Shown here piece by piece: positions 45,768 through 51,552 of a stretch of DNA of 64,000 bases. Made by a program: the position numbers and the translations under genes. Source of the DNA: Shigella phage vB_SdyM_006; the sequence record MK295204. One strand, 5' to 3'. The notes below the pieces were generated by a model, which was not told where the DNA came from, ran no database searches, and saw nothing but the letters and a program-made list of their open reading frames with translations. Every line of letters begins with the position of its first letter. The stretch's first letter is position 1.

Positions 45768-46379
45768 CTAGATATAATATTGATCTATTTTTCTAATATG
45801 GCTTTTAATAAACGAACTTAATATGGATGACAATTTTATAGAATTTTCTACATTGTAACACCCCATAATCTTTTTATCACAAGATGCTAAAGAAAACATA
45901 TAAACAGGTTCTTTGTTTTCATCATTTAAATAATTAACAATAGATACAGCAGAAGAAAAATGGTTATTGTTTTTATCATCTGTTAAAAAATCTTTGATAC
46001 ATATTTCTGTCTTAGATTCTGCATGGTATTTCCAACTATCTAGATATTTCACAAGTTTATTAAGCTTAGTTTTATAATGGGATAAAATTTTATCTGCACA
46101 TATTTTATTAGGGGTTTTACCGTATGAATAAAAACTTGGTGTGTGTAAAATAATATGTCTAGTCCCGAAATTAAATCCTATAGATGCCACTAAATTTATA
46201 GGTCTATTTTTATTTCTTATCTTTTTGTATTCTAAAGAAACAGATTCTGATAAAACAATCCATTCGGATTCGTTAATTTCATAAAAAGCATTATTTGATA
46301 TTTCTGTGGAAATATCAGTTTTATTAATATACATAAAAGTCTCACAAATATATTTTATCATTAAACAGTTTATTAACAA
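45768..46379 (-). CDS. hypothetical protein
   Basis: 203 aa ORF between nrdA and td; no nuclease motifs recognised. Confidence 0.5.
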   Translation of the reverse strand: MLINCLMIKYICETFMYINKTDISTEISNNAFYEINESEWIVLSESVSLEYKKIRNKNRPINLVASIGFNFGTRHIILHTPSFYSYGKTPNKICADKILSHYKTKLNKLVKYLDSWKYHAESKTEICIKDFLTDDKNNNHFSSAVSIVNYLNDENKEPVYMFSLASCDKKIMGCYNVENSIKLSSILSSFIKSHIRKIDQYYI

Positions 46380-46626
46380 CTTCGGCTATTATATCACCAT
46401 GGCATGGCTTAGGATAACATGTGCAACCAAGTCTAGAGCCTCTTAAAACTTCAAGATGATGTTTATTTATTTCGCCAGTTTTTATTTTATTAAGAAAATA
46501 TGGGATAAACCTTTTGATGTTTTCTTCTCTAGTTCCATCTTTAAAAGGATTACCCCACATTGTCCCTCTTTGAATATTAATATCAAAGTCAGAGTTATAT
46601 TTATTAACGACTCTACAATGTTTCAT
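46342..46626 (-). CDS. small Cys/His protein, possibly DUF4326-like
   Basis: 94 aa; motifs WGNPF and LGCTCYPKPCHGD; family assignment from memory, not verified. Confidence 0.45.
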   Translation of the reverse strand: MKHCRVVNKYNSDFDINIQRGTMWGNPFKDGTREENIKRFIPYFLNKIKTGEINKHHLEVLRGSRLGCTCYPKPCHGDIIAEVVNKLFNDKIYL

Positions 46627-47143: not shown

Positions 47144-47995
47144 CTATACACTGAAAGGGTATTTAATAGCAGGGTGATATTGATAATCTTGTACTTCAAA
47201 ATCATCTACAGTGACCCAGGTTTCAATATCTTCTAATGATCTGATATTATCATTAATAATAAGTTTAGGTGCATTAAACGGCGTCCTAGACACATGCTCT
47301 GGGACTAAAGATAATTGGTCTTCATAGATATGGGCATTTGTTATCTTATGAAACACTTTACCAGGTTTATTTGCTGTAATCTGGGCCATTAAATGTAAAA
47401 GCACATAACACTGAATCATATTAAAATTTAAACCTAATGGGACATCACATGATCTTTGGTATGAAGTTAAATATAAAGTCCCATTAACGAGAGAAAAATT
47501 ATGGGTATGCATACAAGGACGTAAACAACCTAAGTCAAATTCTCCTGGATTCCAGAACGTTAGGATTTCTCCACGATCATCAGTTCCTTCACTTAAATTA
47601 TCATAGATTTTTCTGAGTTGGTCAATAGTGCTATTAGGTCCTTGCCATTGTCGTCCTTGAACACCATAAACACGGCCCATATCGTCTTCACCTTTGCGAT
47701 GAGGGTTATTTAGCCATGCTTGATTTTCATTAGCGTTTGCATTCCATGTATTACAACCAATTTCACGAAATTGCGCTGCATTGTCGTAACCACGAAGATA
47801 TCCTAACAGTTCAGCAATAGCAGCTTTATAAAAGCTTTTACGAGTTGTATCAATTGGGAATTCAGAATATTCTAGGTCGGCATTAATAATAACACGACAA
47901 AATTTTCCAGTTCGTTTATTATATACGTCTTGGCCTTCATTATAAATCTTTTTTAATAATTGTTGATACTGATTCTTTTCTAAGATCTTTTCCAT
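47144..47995 (-). CDS. td: thymidylate synthase, uninterrupted
   Basis: 283 aa; active-site region [11 protein letters not shown] and C-terminal [10 protein letters not shown]; single contiguous ORF. Confidence 0.95.
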
Positions 47996-48285
47996 TTATT
48001 ATCACTCACGTACACCAATTGTTTAAAAGATAGTTTAAGCTGTTCTATAGATACTTTAGAATCCGCTGTAACGAATTCTAATTCACCCATTCCTAGCATT
48101 TTACCATCAACCCAAAGTTCAATACATGTCATGTCCCACCAATTTTTTCTAGAATTCAAGAAATCTCTAACTTGTTCTAAGTTAGAGAAAACTCCTGCGT
48201 TTCTAGAGGATTCACACATATTATGGTCAACAACAATAAGTATCTTCGACATTTTTATCCACCAAAACAAAATAAATTTGCTCAC
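47980..48285 (-). CDS. hypothetical protein
   Basis: 101 aa ORF overlapping td start by 16 nt. Confidence 0.4.
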
Positions 48286-48634
48286 CTTGTTTAATAAAAT
48301 ATCCGTAGATTTTTACTTCAGTATCTTTAACTTTAACATACCCTTCAGAAACGGCTTTTGTTATGTCAAATAGTGTAGTACGAATATAAACCAAGCCATC
48401 TTTAGTTCTAATAGATGTACATGATGAATTTATATTTGAGCCAAGTTCTTTTATATCACAAGAAATCTCATAAATACCATGGTGTAATTCTCGTTCTTGA
48501 CAATTTCTATAATTAGATTTAAAAGTTTTTAAAGAAATAGAATCTAAAAAGAATGTTCTTGAAGGAGGCGCTTTAACTAATTTCCATGAGCACATTGGTT
48601 GTACAAACTTTTTATACAATTTAATTTCAGCCAT
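48227..48634 (-). CDS. hypothetical protein, tandem paralogue A
   Basis: 135 aa; shares W-x-LV-x-AP, FF-x-D, HG(I/V)YE and SEG motifs with 48627..49028. Confidence 0.45.
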   Translation of the reverse strand: MAEIKLYKKFVQPMCSWKLVKAPPSRTFFLDSISLKTFKSNYRNCQERELHHGIYEISCDIKELGSNINSSCTSIRTKDGLVYIRTTLFDITKAVSEGYVKVKDTEVKIYGYFIKQGEQIYFVLVDKNVEDTYCC

Positions 48635-49028
48635 TATTCAAGTCCTCATTTATTAAAGGATAAAGACAAATAATACGGCCATTTTTTCTAAAGATACCTT
48701 TAACTGTAATTAAGTTATTTTCAATTTTAGTATGTCCTTCAGAAATAGATTTAAAAAGACGACATAAACATGTGTCCATTTTAACAGCTCGTTTATCTGT
48801 GATATCTGAATTTGTCAAATATAAATCGTGTCCATTACCGCCATATTCTCTATCAATTTTATAATTTTTTAATTCGTAGACACCATGCGGCATAACATCA
48901 ACATGTTCTTTTCGTATTAAAGATTTATACCCATCGATAGTAAGGTCTTTAAAGAATAAGAAATGTTCTTTAGGTGCTTCTACAAGAACCCAATTATTTT
49001 GTTCTTCAAATCTGTGAATTAGTTGCAT
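48627..49028 (-). CDS. hypothetical protein, tandem paralogue B
   Basis: 133 aa; paralogue of 48227..48634. Confidence 0.45.
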   Translation of the reverse strand: MQLIHRFEEQNNWVLVEAPKEHFLFFKDLTIDGYKSLIRKEHVDVMPHGVYELKNYKIDREYGGNGHDLYLTNSDITDKRAVKMDTCLCRLFKSISEGHTKIENNLITVKGIFRKNGRIICLYPLINEDLNNG

Positions 49029-49648
49029 ACTCGTTCCAGTATAGTTTCTTCGATATAATTTTTAATATCGATATCGTTAAAATAATCAGTAACATATAAA
49101 TGAGATTCTACTAACTTAAATTTAGCGTATCCACTCAAATATTGCCCAATAGATTTATCTAAAAATGTATCTGCAGGATTTGTATCTGCATGTAAAACAG
49201 AAGTCCAAATAATCCTATCACAAAATTCAAATGAAGCTTCGATTAAACGTTTACCACCTATAATAGAAACTAAGTTCTTAGGGTTCTTGTTGTTAAATGT
49301 TGGAGCAACTTCGGCTTCTTTACAGATTTGTTCTAATTCATAAGGACCCCATGGTCCTACTATTTCTTTATCAGCAGGTTTTCCGTCTAATGAAAGTAGT
49401 TCACCTCTAGGGTCATCAACAAGAACAATAGAAATTCGGTCTTTCAATTTAGGCATAGACATAAATGTTTTAGGGCCCATGATAACATACGAATCAATTT
49501 GAGACGTAACAGGAACCATTCTAGGAGCTATAGTTCTTGATCTGAAGTTATCCATATCTTTTTTAATACGTGGCCAAGGAAGGGTTCCTTTGAATCCTAT
49601 TCCGTATCCTTTCTGGTCGTATTGAGTTGCAAAAACGGTCTGAATCAT
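49019..49648 (-). CDS. frd: dihydrofolate reductase
   Basis: 209 aa; DHFR N-terminal signature GTLPWPRIKKDMDNFRSRT and glycine pair IIGGKRL; position upstream of td. Confidence 0.8.
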   Translation of the reverse strand: MIQTVFATQYDQKGYGIGFKGTLPWPRIKKDMDNFRSRTIAPRMVPVTSQIDSYVIMGPKTFMSMPKLKDRISIVLVDDPRGELLSLDGKPADKEIVGPWGPYELEQICKEAEVAPTFNNKNPKNLVSIIGGKRLIEASFEFCDRIIWTSVLHADTNPADTFLDKSIGQYLSGYAKFKLVESHLYVTDYFNDIDIKNYIEETILERVCN

Positions 49649-49682: not shown

Positions 49683-50033
49683 TTAAGCTAGCCAAAAATC
49701 TTTATTCGTACCAAAAATATTAATTGTGACCTTATCAGCAGTCTCATCATATTTTTTATTAACTAAAACTAGGTCATCAATCTTGTGACATACACGAAGT
49801 TTCTTATAAAAATAATTTAATATTTCATAAAGTTCTTTTGTTTCTTCACGCGGTTCGTTAGACATACAATAACAACGAATAGCAGATAAATCATATCCAA
49901 ATTCTTCTGGGCCCATAAGTTTTGCATTAATTTCTGCAGGGTCAACATCTTTATAACAACACATAGGGTAGACAGTCCCATCCATGTCACGAAATTTGAA
50001 GCCGTAATCTGCCAGTGTTTTTAAAGTTTTCAT
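49683..50033 (-). CDS. hypothetical protein
   Basis: 116 aa ORF. Confidence 0.45.
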   Translation of the reverse strand: MKTLKTLADYGFKFRDMDGTVYPMCCYKDVDPAEINAKLMGPEEFGYDLSAIRCYCMSNEPREETKELYEILNYFYKKLRVCHKIDDLVLVNKKYDETADKVTINIFGTNKDFWLA

Positions 50034-50040
50034 ATTGTTC

Positions 50041-50544
50041 TCACATTTTTACCAAAGTTTCTTTTAAAAATTCATATGCACTGATGAAGTCTTTTTCTTC
50101 AGTATATCCAAGTTCAGGTATTTCAATAGAAGGGTCTTTAAATCTAGCTTCAAGAGTTTTTATCATTTTCTTGACACCTTTTTTATCTAAAAATACCGCT
50201 TTACCTGGTGTATATAAATTCGCAGAATACACTTTATGCTTAGTGGGCCCATCTACAATCTTACCTTCATCTAAAGGTTCTAAAAACTGTATTGTAAATT
50301 GAGTAAACAAATAAGGTGTAATAACCCATGGAACAAATACACCATCAACACAGAGTCGATAACAAGATTGATTAATTCGTTTAAGCCCAAATTCAACATC
50401 CCATTTACTAAAATCATTATTTGTAATATAATTAGCAATTTGAGTATTTTGAACTCCATTTTTAGCATTAATGAATTTATTAAAATCTTCTTTAGATTTA
50501 AATTTGTACCGACATACGTTTTTAAGGTTTTTAGGCTGTTTCAT
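50041..50544 (-). CDS. hypothetical early protein
   Basis: 167 aa; preceded by GTTTAC-N17-TATTAT early promoter and SD GAGG. Confidence 0.5.
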   Translation of the reverse strand: MKQPKNLKNVCRYKFKSKEDFNKFINAKNGVQNTQIANYITNNDFSKWDVEFGLKRINQSCYRLCVDGVFVPWVITPYLFTQFTIQFLEPLDEGKIVDGPTKHKVYSANLYTPGKAVFLDKKGVKKMIKTLEARFKDPSIEIPELGYTEEKDFISAYEFLKETLVKM

Positions 50545-50572: not shown

Positions 50573-50601
50573 ATAATATCACGCTAAAAATCTTTGTAAA
50601 C
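50573..50601 (-). promoter_or_regulatory. early promoter (AAATAAATGTTTAC-N17-TATTAT)
   Basis: Minus-strand GTTTAC (plus 50596-50601), 17-nt spacer, TATTAT (plus 50573-50578); follows the gene 32 terminator. Confidence 0.55.
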
Positions 50602-50620: not shown

Positions 50621-50643
50621 AAAAAAGGAACCCGAAGGTTCCT
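50621..50643 (-). terminator. terminator after gene 32 (AGGAACC-CGAA-GGTTCCT)
   Basis: Hairpin then T-run on minus strand, directly followed by an early promoter. Confidence 0.65.
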
Positions 50644-50655
50644 TTTATTAAGAAA

Positions 50656-51552
50656 TTAGATGAGTTCGTTTAAAATATCATCAACTGACTGGTCAGTCAT
50701 TGAGCTTTCACCCAAATCAACTGGTTCGTTAAATGAAGACATTTGACTAGAAAAATCATCTTGAGCAGATAAATTATCTAATTCGGCATCAATATCAGCA
50801 GAAGCATTTGATGCAGAACCTGCAACCATTCCAACACCCATAACTTGTTTAAACTTAGTTTCTAACTCAGCATAAGGTTTAAACTGGTCTTTAGCAACGA
50901 TAGCTTGTAAATCTACACATTGATCAATAATTGATTTTTGAACAGCTTCATCATCAATATTAGGAATTTCTGATTGTGCATAGAACTTACAGTCATCATA
51001 ATTAGGGAAATTACTTACTTTTTTAACTTTAAGAGCAAAGTTAGCACCTTCAAAAGGACAGAAAATATTTACTGGTGTCTCACCCATTTCGATATCAACG
51101 TTTGCCATAGAATCAATCTTATCCATGATTTTTTGACCGAAACGATATTTAAATACTTTACCTTCATTTTCAGGAGCACTTGGGTCTTTAACAACTAAAA
51201 TATTAGCCCAATAAGAATGTTTACGTTTAATCAGTTTATATTCTTCTGGATTAGTATTGTATGAGTCTTTTTCTGTTAAATATTTACACACTGGGCATGA
51301 ATCATAATCGCCGTGTGTAGAACTACAATTATTGATATACCATTTACCATTTTTCTTAAAACCATGATTTGTTAGTTTAACAAATGGAGTAGCATTATCA
51401 TCTTTAGCTGGTAAAAAACGAATTACTGCGTTACCATTACCTGCGGCATCAGTTTTTAATTTCCATTCGTTTTTATCTTCGTTTTGAAAACCACCACCTT
51501 TTAAGCCAGCTAATTGTTCTTGAAGTTCTGTTACTGATTTACGTTTAAACAT
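50656..51552 (-). CDS. 32: single-stranded DNA-binding protein
   Basis: 298 aa vs 301 in T4; zinc ligands in [15 protein letters not shown], acidic C-terminal tail. Confidence 0.93.

What the first reader, a model, noticed from the sequence alone, without database searches (positions are those of the whole stretch)
48227..49028. Tandem paralogue pair inserted between frd and td
Two adjacent proteins of 135 and 133 aa share W-x-LV-x-AP, FF-x-D, HG(I/V)YE and SEG-x-K motifs, with a further 101-aa ORF next to them. In T4, frd and td are immediate neighbours as I recall, so this is an insertion into the nucleotide-metabolism operon.
Basis: partly seen in the sequence, partly recalled or inferred. 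Interest (0 to 1): 0.4.

Follow-up and report, generated by a model that had tools for sequence, protein, structure and literature searches.

The report
Duplicated small gene between frd and td
Two adjacent genes between the dihydrofolate reductase and thymidylate synthase genes of this Proteus T4-like phage are true duplicates of a small protein of unknown function that occupies this spot in most T4 relatives, so T4 is the odd one out for lacking it.

Summary
ORF133 (48627-49028, minus) and ORF135 (48227-48634, minus) are paralogues: BLASTP E 4e-12, 29% identity. Both match PHROG 1928 (function unknown) at about 1e-30.

In T4, frd and td overlap by 4 nt. But one or two members of this family lie between frd and td in about a dozen sampled Straboviridae genera. 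These include phage T2, where RefSeq leaves the intact ORF unannotated.

Most two-copy phages carry a short form plus a long form. The window has two long forms, which cluster with the single Gualtarvirus copy (83% bootstrap). That points to a separate, lineage-specific duplication.

All genes from frd to td overlap end to start, and I found no convincing terminator between them. Both copies are under purifying selection (dN/dS about 0.2).

Function remains unknown. My best guess is a dispensable early binding protein that works as a dimer. The genes are ordinary in kind and mildly interesting in detail.

The parts
48627..49028 (-). ORF133, the upstream (frd-proximal) long-form member of the phrog_1928 family
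   Evidence: ORF. It matches phrog_1928 at 9e-31. The AF2 model has pLDDT 92.1 and pTM 0.85, with OB-type strand order in residues 49-124. Its start ATG overlaps the end of frd by 10 nt. dN/dS is 0.20.
48227..48634 (-). ORF135, the downstream long-form paralogue; the closest relative of the single Gualtarvirus copy
   Evidence: BLASTP against ORF133 gives E 4e-12. It matches phrog_1928 at 2.5e-30. It groups with the Gualtarvirus single copy at 80% bootstrap. Its start overlaps the ORF133 stop by 8 nt (ATGGCTGA), with GAGGA 11 nt upstream. dN/dS is 0.21.
47980..48252 (-).
   Evidence: It matches phrog_20605 at 1.9e-51, covering residues 12-101 of the 101-aa form. It is annotated as 90 aa in SJ_PmiM, phiP4-3 and PM2. 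A weak homologue lies directly after the family gene in Gualtarvirus (phmmer 1e-6 to 2e-7). It overlaps ORF135 by 26 nt and td by 16 nt. dN/dS is 0.18.
49019..49648 (-). frd (dihydrofolate reductase), the upstream boundary of the slot
   Evidence: Pfam DHFR_1 at 2.4e-12 and phrog_316 at 2.7e-36.
47144..47995 (-). td (thymidylate synthase), the downstream boundary; intronless here and of a non-T-even ThyA lineage
   Evidence: Pfam Thymidylat_synt at 2.5e-71. It is 63-66% identical to the td of T5-like phages but only 34-36% identical to other T4-like td. phiP4-3 carries an intron with an I-TevI-like gene at this position.
50573..50600 (-). Sigma-70-like promoter candidate (TTTACA, 16 nt spacer, TG, TATTAT) upstream of ORF167; possible start of the transcription unit that contains the pair
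   Evidence: This is a consensus scan only. The total number of promoter-like hits in the region is no higher than in shuffles, so the assignment is tentative.
50623..50646 (-). Terminator-like hairpin (10 pairs plus a T run) directly after gene 32
   Evidence: Six terminator-like sites were found against 1.9 expected. Between frd and td the scan reports only one weak site (3 G-C pairs), inside ORF90.

Best explanation
ORF133 and ORF135 are two diverged copies of a small, mildly basic protein family (phrog_1928, about 105-136 aa) found so far only in T4-like phage genomes. The family is a regular occupant of the frd-td junction.

**Shown**
- The two genes are paralogues under purifying selection.
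- They form a chain of overlapping, probably translationally coupled genes: frd, ORF133, ORF135, ORF90, td. The chain has no T4-type late promoter motif.
- The pair arose by duplication of the long form in the common ancestor of Bragavirus and Gualtarvirus. This is separate from the older short/long duplication seen in Tevenvirinae and Marfavirus.
- The gene is dispensable in at least some phages.

**Inferred**
- The protein is an OB-like beta-barrel: beta1-3, helix, beta4-5, with an N-terminal strand/helix extension that short forms lack.
- Its invariant His-Gly-x-Tyr (start of beta1) and Gly-x-Phe-x-Lys-x-Gly (beta4-beta5 hairpin) residues form a ligand-binding surface.
- It acts early in infection as a dimer: a homodimer where there is one gene, and a heterodimer of the two co-translated paralogues here.
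- It binds a nucleic acid or a partner protein. It does not catalyse a step of dTMP synthesis.

The ligand is not known.
For: **Paralogy and family**
- establish the relationship between the two genes and their family.
- An exhaustive profile search of 1.84 billion representatives finds only 44 clusters. About 41 of them are small proteins of this type.
- Nearly every context examined is a T4-like frd-td junction.

**Operon**
- All four gene junctions overlap.
- There is no TATAAATA motif on the minus strand between 46000 and 51700.
- A terminator and then a promoter-like site lie after gene 32.

**Selection**
- dN/dS is 0.20 and 0.21.

**Duplication history**
- In the NJ tree, both Bragavirus copies plus the Gualtarvirus copy form a clade at 83% bootstrap.
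- ORF135-type plus Gualtarvirus group at 80%. The long 'D' clade of other genera has 79%.

**Fold**
- The model has pLDDT 92.1 with the element order E49-59, E69-72, E81-84, H88-96, E100-116, E119-124.
- Top Foldseek PDB hits are Stn1/Ten1, RPA32/14 and Cdc13 OB domains.

**Charge**
- Median pI is 8.7 and median net charge is +2.

**Dimer hint**
- The linker-fused ORF133-ORF135 model, built on 14 genome-paired rows, has pTM 0.69. The maximum expected if only one 133-aa half of the 298-aa chain were placed is about 0.45.
- Every two-copy phage has the two genes overlapping.

**Dispensability**
- T4 lacks the gene.
- Some Tequatroviruses carry an unrelated 68-aa ORF in the slot instead.
- Morganella phage Rgz1 has a nonsense codon at residue 34.
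Against: - There are no matches in Pfam, NCBIfam, PADLOC or PDB sequences.
- The fused-model pTM is the only evidence for a heterodimer. No PAE or coordinates were available, the tether and the shallow alignment may inflate it, and I could not run a homodimer control.
- Single-copy phages keep either a short or a long form, so a heterodimer cannot be obligatory.
- Synteny with frd and td may reflect only the generally conserved gene order of T4-like genomes, not a functional link.
- Nothing tested here shows binding to anything.
Confidence: 0.45

Rival explanations
1. The family is an accessory host-interaction gene, for example an inhibitor of a host defence or another host protein. It merely sits in a permissive junction of the early region. 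The repeated duplications reflect diversification against variable host targets rather than dimer formation.
For: - The slot is polymorphic within one genus: empty in T4, a family member in T2, and an unrelated 68-aa ORF in fFiEco06.
- The gene is lost or broken in some phages.
- Copy number varies from 0 to 2 among genera.
- The tandem pair has arisen at least twice, and probably three times if Aeromonas phage PX29 is counted.
- ORF133 evolves faster than ORF135: 76% against 88% identity to PM2.
- The genes appear to be expressed early and are small with no catalytic motifs, as is typical of T4 host-takeover genes (established knowledge of T4 early genes).
Against: - dN/dS of about 0.2 shows no sign of an arms race.
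- There is no PADLOC match. That library holds defence proteins, not anti-defence proteins, so the test is weak.
- The family keeps the same position and the same invariant residues across hosts from Escherichia to Proteus, Serratia and Yersinia. This argues for a conserved phage-internal or universally conserved target.
Confidence: 0.3
2. The proteins are accessory subunits of the phage deoxynucleotide-synthesis machinery. They bind Frd, Td or gp32, and so tether dTMP synthesis to the replication fork or regulate it.
For: - The position between frd and td is invariant, with start/stop overlaps on both sides, in about a dozen genera.
- The fold is OB-like, a fold often used for ssDNA and protein binding.
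- The association survived even where td itself was replaced by a different ThyA lineage.
- From memory, not checked here: T4 dNTP-synthesising enzymes are reported to form a complex that interacts with gp32.
Against: - T4, the phage in which that complex was defined, has no such gene at this junction.
- Phages outside the T4-like group normally have frd and td overlapping directly, with no family member.
- One distant member (P0009) lies in a different neighbourhood, next to NMN-transporter and NadR-like genes.
- No fusion to Frd or Td was seen.
Confidence: 0.15
3. The ORFs are non-functional remnants, or chance ORFs in an expanded intergenic spacer.
For: - No function is known.
- T2 RefSeq leaves the homologous ORF unannotated.
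Against: - dN/dS is 0.2, with dS of 0.27-0.87.
- Profile matches reach 1e-30.
- The fold prediction is confident.
- The family is conserved across genera with invariant residues.
Confidence: 0.01

Closest known systems
PHROG 1928 (phage protein family, function unknown); 'hypothetical proteins' SJ_71/SJ_72 of Proteus phage SJ_PmiM and phiP43_028/029 of phiP4-3
   Same: Both window proteins match the profile end to end (E about 1e-30). They are 99% identical to annotated hypothetical proteins of SJ_PmiM and phiP4-3.
   Different: Nothing differs: they are members. The family has no described function, fold or name.
The unannotated 115-aa ORF between frd and td of phage T2, and its homologues in T2-type Tequatrovirus, Mosigvirus and Jiaodavirus
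   Same: Same family (phrog_1928 at 8e-36), same slot, and the same conserved W, HGxY-like and GRFxKxG motifs.
   Different: - It is the short form, lacking the roughly 28-residue strand/helix segment after Trp13.
- It is a single copy.
- It belongs to a different branch of the tree.
Short-plus-long tandem pairs of Karamvirus CC31, Gelderlandvirus, Moonvirus, Kanagawavirus, Winklervirus and Marfavirus
   Same: Two overlapping family members lie between frd and td.
   Different: Those pairs are short (next to frd) plus long (next to td) and come from an older duplication. The window pair is long plus long from a separate duplication, with an extra 90-aa gene before td.
OB-fold proteins: bacterial SSB/PriB, and the small heterodimeric OB pairs RPA32/RPA14 and Stn1/Ten1
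   Same: - The secondary-structure order is beta1-beta2-beta3-helix-beta4-beta5.
- These proteins are the top structural hits.
- Two small paralogous subunits are possibly paired.
   Different: - There is no sequence-profile similarity.
- The family has an N-terminal extension not found in those families.
- No evidence of DNA binding was obtained.
Other small conserved ORFs of the T4 gene 32-nrdA region (frd.1/DUF5417, frd.2, frd.3, nrdA.1/DUF4326)
   Same: They are small early ORFs of unknown function, kept in syntenic positions around frd and td in T4-like genomes.
   Different: hhalign finds no relation to frd.2 or nrdA.1 (probability 0.2%). Those families have Pfam entries; this one has none.

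Membership tests
PHROG 1928 | A significant full-length match to the family profile | tested here: met
   ORF133 scores 9e-31 (residues 2-131 against profile 6-125 of 126). ORF135 scores 2.5e-30.
PHROG 1928 / frd-td slot family | Conserved residues W13, H48-G49-x-Y51, G111-x-F113-x-K115-x-G117 (ORF133 numbering) | tested here: met
   All are present in both window proteins. W, G111, F113 and K115 are invariant in 45 of 45 sequences.
PHROG 1928 / frd-td slot family | Location between frd and td on the same strand | tested here: met
   for the window. for relatives.
OB fold | A five-stranded barrel with the order beta1-beta2-beta3-alpha-beta4-beta5 | tested here: met
   DSSP on the pLDDT-92 model gives E49-59, E69-72, E81-84, H88-96, E100-116, E119-124. 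The same order appears in the ORF135 half of the fused model.
OB fold | Significant structural superposition on solved OB domains | tested here: inconclusive
   [not shown]
Bacterial/phage SSB or PriB family | A sequence-profile match to SSB-type domains | tested here: not met
   No Pfam, NCBIfam or PDB-sequence match for any of the 45 members.
Bacterial/phage SSB or PriB family | Binding of single-stranded DNA | not testable with these tools
   This needs EMSA or a similar assay.
RPA32/RPA14- or Stn1/Ten1-type OB heterodimer | Two OB subunits forming a defined heterodimer | tested here: inconclusive
   The fused model has pTM 0.69 with a disordered linker. No PAE, no multimer model and no control were available.
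T4 frd.2 (Pfam FRD2) and nrdA.1 families | Profile similarity | tested here: not met
   hhalign probability is 0.2% for both.
Known anti-phage defence components (PADLOC) | A match to a defence-system protein model | tested here: not met
   No hits for ORF133, ORF135 or ORF90 at E up to 1.

The most novel reading that the evidence does not exclude
The frd-td slot family is a previously unrecognised phage OB-fold dimer. The window's two translationally coupled paralogues would form an RPA32/RPA14-like heterodimer that binds single-stranded nucleic acid or gp32. This would physically link thymidylate synthesis to the replication fork. Tandem duplication into heterodimers would have evolved independently two or three times at the same junction: in Tevenvirinae/Marfavirus, in Bragavirus, and in Aeromonas phage PX29.
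Probability: 0.1. Interest if true: 0.6.

Novelty: new member of a known kind. Interest (0 to 1): 0.3.

Why it matters
T4 is the reference for all T4-like genome annotation, so genes that T4 lacks tend to stay nameless. This small family is one of the most consistently placed non-T4 genes in the group.

- tblastn finds it in over 600 phage genomes, including T2.
- It always lies between the two enzymes of the thymidylate cycle.
- It has been duplicated repeatedly at that spot.

T2 (gene present), T4 (gene absent) and Morganella phage Rgz1 (nonsense allele) are natural comparisons for a first phenotype. A confident predicted fold and a short list of invariant residues give direct targets for mutagenesis.

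If the protein links nucleotide synthesis to replication, that would bear on the old question of how the T4 dNTP-synthesising complex is organised. If it is a host-interaction factor, it adds a widespread early gene to that catalogue. As it stands, it is an ordinary uncharacterised accessory family.

Tried and rejected
- **Known-family searches found nothing.** Pfam, NCBIfam, PADLOC and PDB-sequence searches of the two proteins or the family profile gave no useful hit. One member has a stray LCI-fold hit at E 0.003, which I treated as chance.
- **T4 neighbours are unrelated.** I tested relatedness to T4 frd.2 and nrdA.1 by hhalign and rejected it.
- **Locus search with the family alignment failed.** The search for related loci with A2 found no conserved stretch to search with. 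I used td-centred loci instead.
- **AlphaFold database search was unavailable.** The afdb50 Foldseek library was not on the machine.
- **First fused alignment was discarded.** The version that included unpaired sequences (A4) had single proteins split across the two halves. I did not use it. Only genome-paired rows (A5) went into the fused model.
- **Word-indexed protein searches added nothing.** They returned only hypothetical proteins with no names or Pfam domains.
- **Literature searches found no description.** Nothing describes a gene between frd and td. Two search calls failed on term length.
- **Intron linkage was considered and not supported.** I asked whether T4's loss of the gene is tied to the td intron and I-TevI. 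Gelderlandvirus, phiP4-3 and fFiEco06 have a td intron and still have an occupied slot.
- **Late or virion role is not supported.** There is no late-promoter motif on the coding strand in the region.
- **Not tested.** I did not check whether T4 has a family member elsewhere in its genome.

Full report
**Where the window comes from.** The region is 99.1% identical to Proteus phage SJ_PmiM and 98.4% identical to phiP4-3, both Straboviridae of the genus Bragavirus. All genes here are on the minus strand, in this order:
- gene 32 (50656-51552)
- ORF167 and ORF116
- frd (49019-49648)
- ORF133 (48627-49028)
- ORF135 (48227-48634)
- a 90/101-aa ORF (47980-48252, or to 48285)
- td (47144-47995)
- three small ORFs, then nrdA

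**Checking the observation.** The two proteins align over 126 residues at 29% identity, E 4e-12. Each matches phrog_1928 (function unknown) at about 1e-30.
- The third ORF matches phrog_20605 from residue 12 of its 101-aa form, and relatives annotate it as 90 aa. ATG 48252 is therefore the likely start.
- dN/dS against Proteus phage PM2 is 0.20 for ORF133, 0.21 for ORF135 and 0.18 for ORF90. For comparison it is 0.08 for td and 0.32 for frd. All three are real coding genes.

**Operon anatomy.**

| Junction | Overlap | Note |
|---|---|---|
| frd / ORF133 | 10 nt | |
| ORF133 / ORF135 | 8 nt (ATGGCTGA) | GAGGA 11 nt upstream |
| ORF135 / ORF90 | 26 nt | |
| ORF90 / td | 16 nt | |

- A strong hairpin terminator follows gene 32 (50646-50623).
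- A sigma-70-like site with a TG-extended -10 lies at 50600-50573, just upstream of ORF167.
- Between frd and td the scan gives only one weak terminator-like site, inside ORF90.
- The T4 late-promoter motif TATAAATA is absent from the minus strand between 46000 and 51700.
- I infer that the pair is expressed before replication, on one message with frd and td, by coupled translation.

**How wide the family is.** A profile search that read all 1.84 billion cluster representatives found 44 clusters at E 1e-3 or better.
- Three of these are long repetitive proteins and probably spurious.
- No member has a Pfam, NCBIfam, PADLOC or PDB-sequence match.
- tblastn against 50,697 phage records found 32 records with ORF135, 123 with a long-form member (P0026) and 613 with a short-form member (P0011). 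All are T4-like phages of Enterobacterales.

**The frd-td slot across T4-like phages.** Every genomic context I opened, bar one, places the family between frd and td.

| Copies in the slot | Phages |
|---|---|
| One short form | T2, Mosigvirus PTK, Jiaodavirus KpV477 |
| One long form | Tegunavirus phiR1-RT, Yersinia phage MHG19, Serratia phage 92A1, Gualtarvirus |
| Short next to frd, long next to td | Karamvirus CC31, Gelderlandvirus, Moonvirus Merlin, Kanagawavirus, Winklervirus CBH8, EcS1, Pectobacterium PM2, Marfavirus F48 |

- The exception is P0009. It lies on a short contig next to NMN-transporter and NadR-like genes.
- In T2 the ORF is intact but unannotated in RefSeq.
- T4 has nothing in the slot: frd and td overlap by 4 nt.

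**Variation within Tequatrovirus.** The slot comes in three states: empty (T4), the T2-type family member, or an unrelated 68-aa ORF (fFiEco06).
- 363 records carry the T2-type ORF.
- 515 records have T4-like frd/td ends.
- Of 12 rows taken at even steps down the ranking of those 515 records, one was T4-type, six had about 416 extra bases and three had about 206 extra bases.
- In T2 the insert is bracketed by AAATGAAA on both sides. Deletion between these repeats gives the exact T4 junction.
- T4 is therefore best read as having lost the gene.

**Outside the T4-like group.** In phages outside the T4-like group (T5-like and others) where frd lies directly upstream of td, the usual state is a 4-nt overlap with no family member. 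The family was thus an early acquisition within T4-like phages, not a Bragavirus insertion.

**History of the window's pair.** I built a neighbour-joining tree of 30 members (BLOSUM62 distances, 200 bootstraps).
- Both Bragavirus copies and the single Gualtarvirus copy fall in one clade at 83%.
- ORF135-type is sister to Gualtarvirus at 80%.
- The td-proximal long copies of other genera form a separate clade at 79%.
- Both window proteins keep the roughly 28-residue segment that short forms lack.
- The window's pair is therefore a second, lineage-specific duplication of the long form. It predates the Bragavirus-Gualtarvirus split, and Gualtarvirus later lost one copy.
- ORF90 has a faint homologue directly after the family gene in Gualtarvirus, which supports shared ancestry of the block.

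**A possible third pair.** Aeromonas phage PX29 has two adjacent 157-aa paralogues (E 7e-13 to each other) in the same slot. They are only weakly similar to this family:
- hmmsearch E 3e-4;
- hhalign E 6e-4 at 28% probability;
- Foldseek hits to Aeromonas phage proteins at about 1e-3.

**Fold.** AlphaFold2 with the 45-sequence alignment gives pLDDT 92.1 and pTM 0.85.
- Residues 49-124 have the OB order: three strands, a helix, then two strands.
- Residues 1-45 add short strands and a helix.
- Foldseek against the PDB is not significant. Its top hits are Stn1/Ten1, RPA32/14 and Cdc13 OB domains.
- BFVD returns only uncharacterised homologues from T4-like phages.
- The invariant residues lie at the start of beta1 (H-G-x-Y) and in the beta4-beta5 hairpin (G-x-F-x-K-x-G).
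- Placing them together as a binding patch is inference, because no coordinates were returned.
- The family is mildly basic, with median pI 8.7.

**Heterodimer test.** I fused ORF133 and ORF135 with a 30-residue Gly-Ser linker. The alignment held 14 rows, each pairing the two copies of one genome (A5).
- The model has pLDDT 73.9 and pTM 0.69, and the linker is below pLDDT 50.
- If the two halves were placed independently, pTM should not exceed about 0.45, since one half is 133 of 298 residues.
- The value therefore hints at a defined mutual arrangement.
- This is weak evidence. There was no PAE, no coordinates and no homodimer control, and the chain was tethered.
- Single-copy phages show that a heterodimer cannot be obligatory.

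**What it most likely does.**
- Shown: a conserved, dispensable, probably early, co-translated small protein family with an OB-like predicted fold, duplicated repeatedly at one junction.
- Inferred: it is a binding module that works as a dimer, a heterodimer here, on a nucleic acid or protein ligand.
- It probably has no catalytic role. T4 makes dTMP without it, and the protein has no enzyme-like motifs.

**Rivals.**
- A host-interaction or anti-defence accessory gene. The polymorphic slot, the losses and the copy-number changes favour this. The low dN/dS and the conservation across hosts count against it.
- An adaptor of the nucleotide-synthesis complex. The strict position favours this. Absence from T4 and from frd-td pairs in phages outside the T4-like group counts against it.
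- Non-coding remnants are excluded.

**Novelty.** The genes are already in GenBank as hypothetical proteins and in PHROGs as family 1928. This is a member of a catalogued but uncharacterised family. What is new here:
- the fold assignment;
- the finding that T4 is the exception at this junction;
- the unannotated T2 gene;
- the independent duplications.

I score interest at 0.3.

Noticed in passing
window 47144-47995 (td): The td of Bragavirus and Gualtarvirus is not of the T-even lineage. It is 63-66% identical to the td of T5-like and other phages (Providencia PR1 and PSTCR5, Salmonella SE11, Cronobacter S13) but only 34-36% identical to the td of other T4-like phages (F48, EcS1, Pectobacterium PM2). 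This suggests td was replaced by a foreign ThyA while the neighbouring small genes stayed.
   Followed up: partly
L096 2501-2848 (phage T2, NC_054931 138770-139099 region): RefSeq T2 leaves a 413-bp gap between frd and td unannotated. The gap holds an intact 115-aa member of the family (phrog_1928 at 8e-36).
   Followed up: yes
L096 2470-2900, L108 524-730, L007 9110-9113: The Tequatrovirus frd/td junction has three alleles: empty (T4), the T2-type family ORF, and an unrelated 68-aa ORF (fFiEco06, MSNKLKVKD...). The T2 insert is flanked by the 8-base repeat AAATGAAA. Recombination between the repeats would give the T4 junction exactly.
   Followed up: partly
L066 3762-4708 (Aeromonas phage PX29): Two adjacent 157-aa paralogues (E 7e-13 to each other, phrog_12587) and a 104-aa ORF lie between frd and td. 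They are only weakly similar to the phrog_1928 family, so this may be a third, very divergent tandem pair in the same slot.
   Followed up: partly
L005 3001-3411 (Morganella phage Rgz1): The single family gene carries a nonsense codon at residue 34, whereas the gene in Providencia phage PSTRCR_121 is intact with only 8 base differences. It is annotated as two fragments. This is either a natural knockout or a sequencing error.
   Followed up: partly
L002 2147-4053 (phiP4-3), compared with window 47144-47995: phiP4-3 is 98% identical to the window, but its td is split by an intron carrying an I-TevI-like homing endonuclease. The window and SJ_PmiM have an intronless td.
   Followed up: no
L003 2026-2610 (Proteus phage PM2): The 194-aa 'hypothetical protein' upstream of the pair in PM2 is the phage's dihydrofolate reductase. 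It matches an frd profile and is only 55% identical to the window's Frd, making frd the most divergent conserved gene in this block.
   Followed up: partly
window 46342-46626: A 94-aa DUF4326 protein (E 1e-20, phrog_464) lies between td and nrdA. DUF4326 proteins hold the same position next to nrdA in Gelderlandvirus and Pectobacterium PM2.
   Followed up: no
window 49683-50544: ORF116 and ORF167, between gene 32 and frd, have no homologues outside the closest relatives (SJ_PmiM, phiP4-3). They replace the frd.1/frd.2/frd.3 genes found at this position in T4, T2 and others. ORF167 has a faint N-terminal match to goF / AntA-like profiles (E 1e-4 and 0.05).
   Followed up: no
window 50623-50646 and 50573-50600: A 10-pair GC-rich hairpin with a T run lies directly after gene 32. 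It is followed by a TG-extended sigma-70-like promoter candidate, a likely boundary between transcription units.
   Followed up: no
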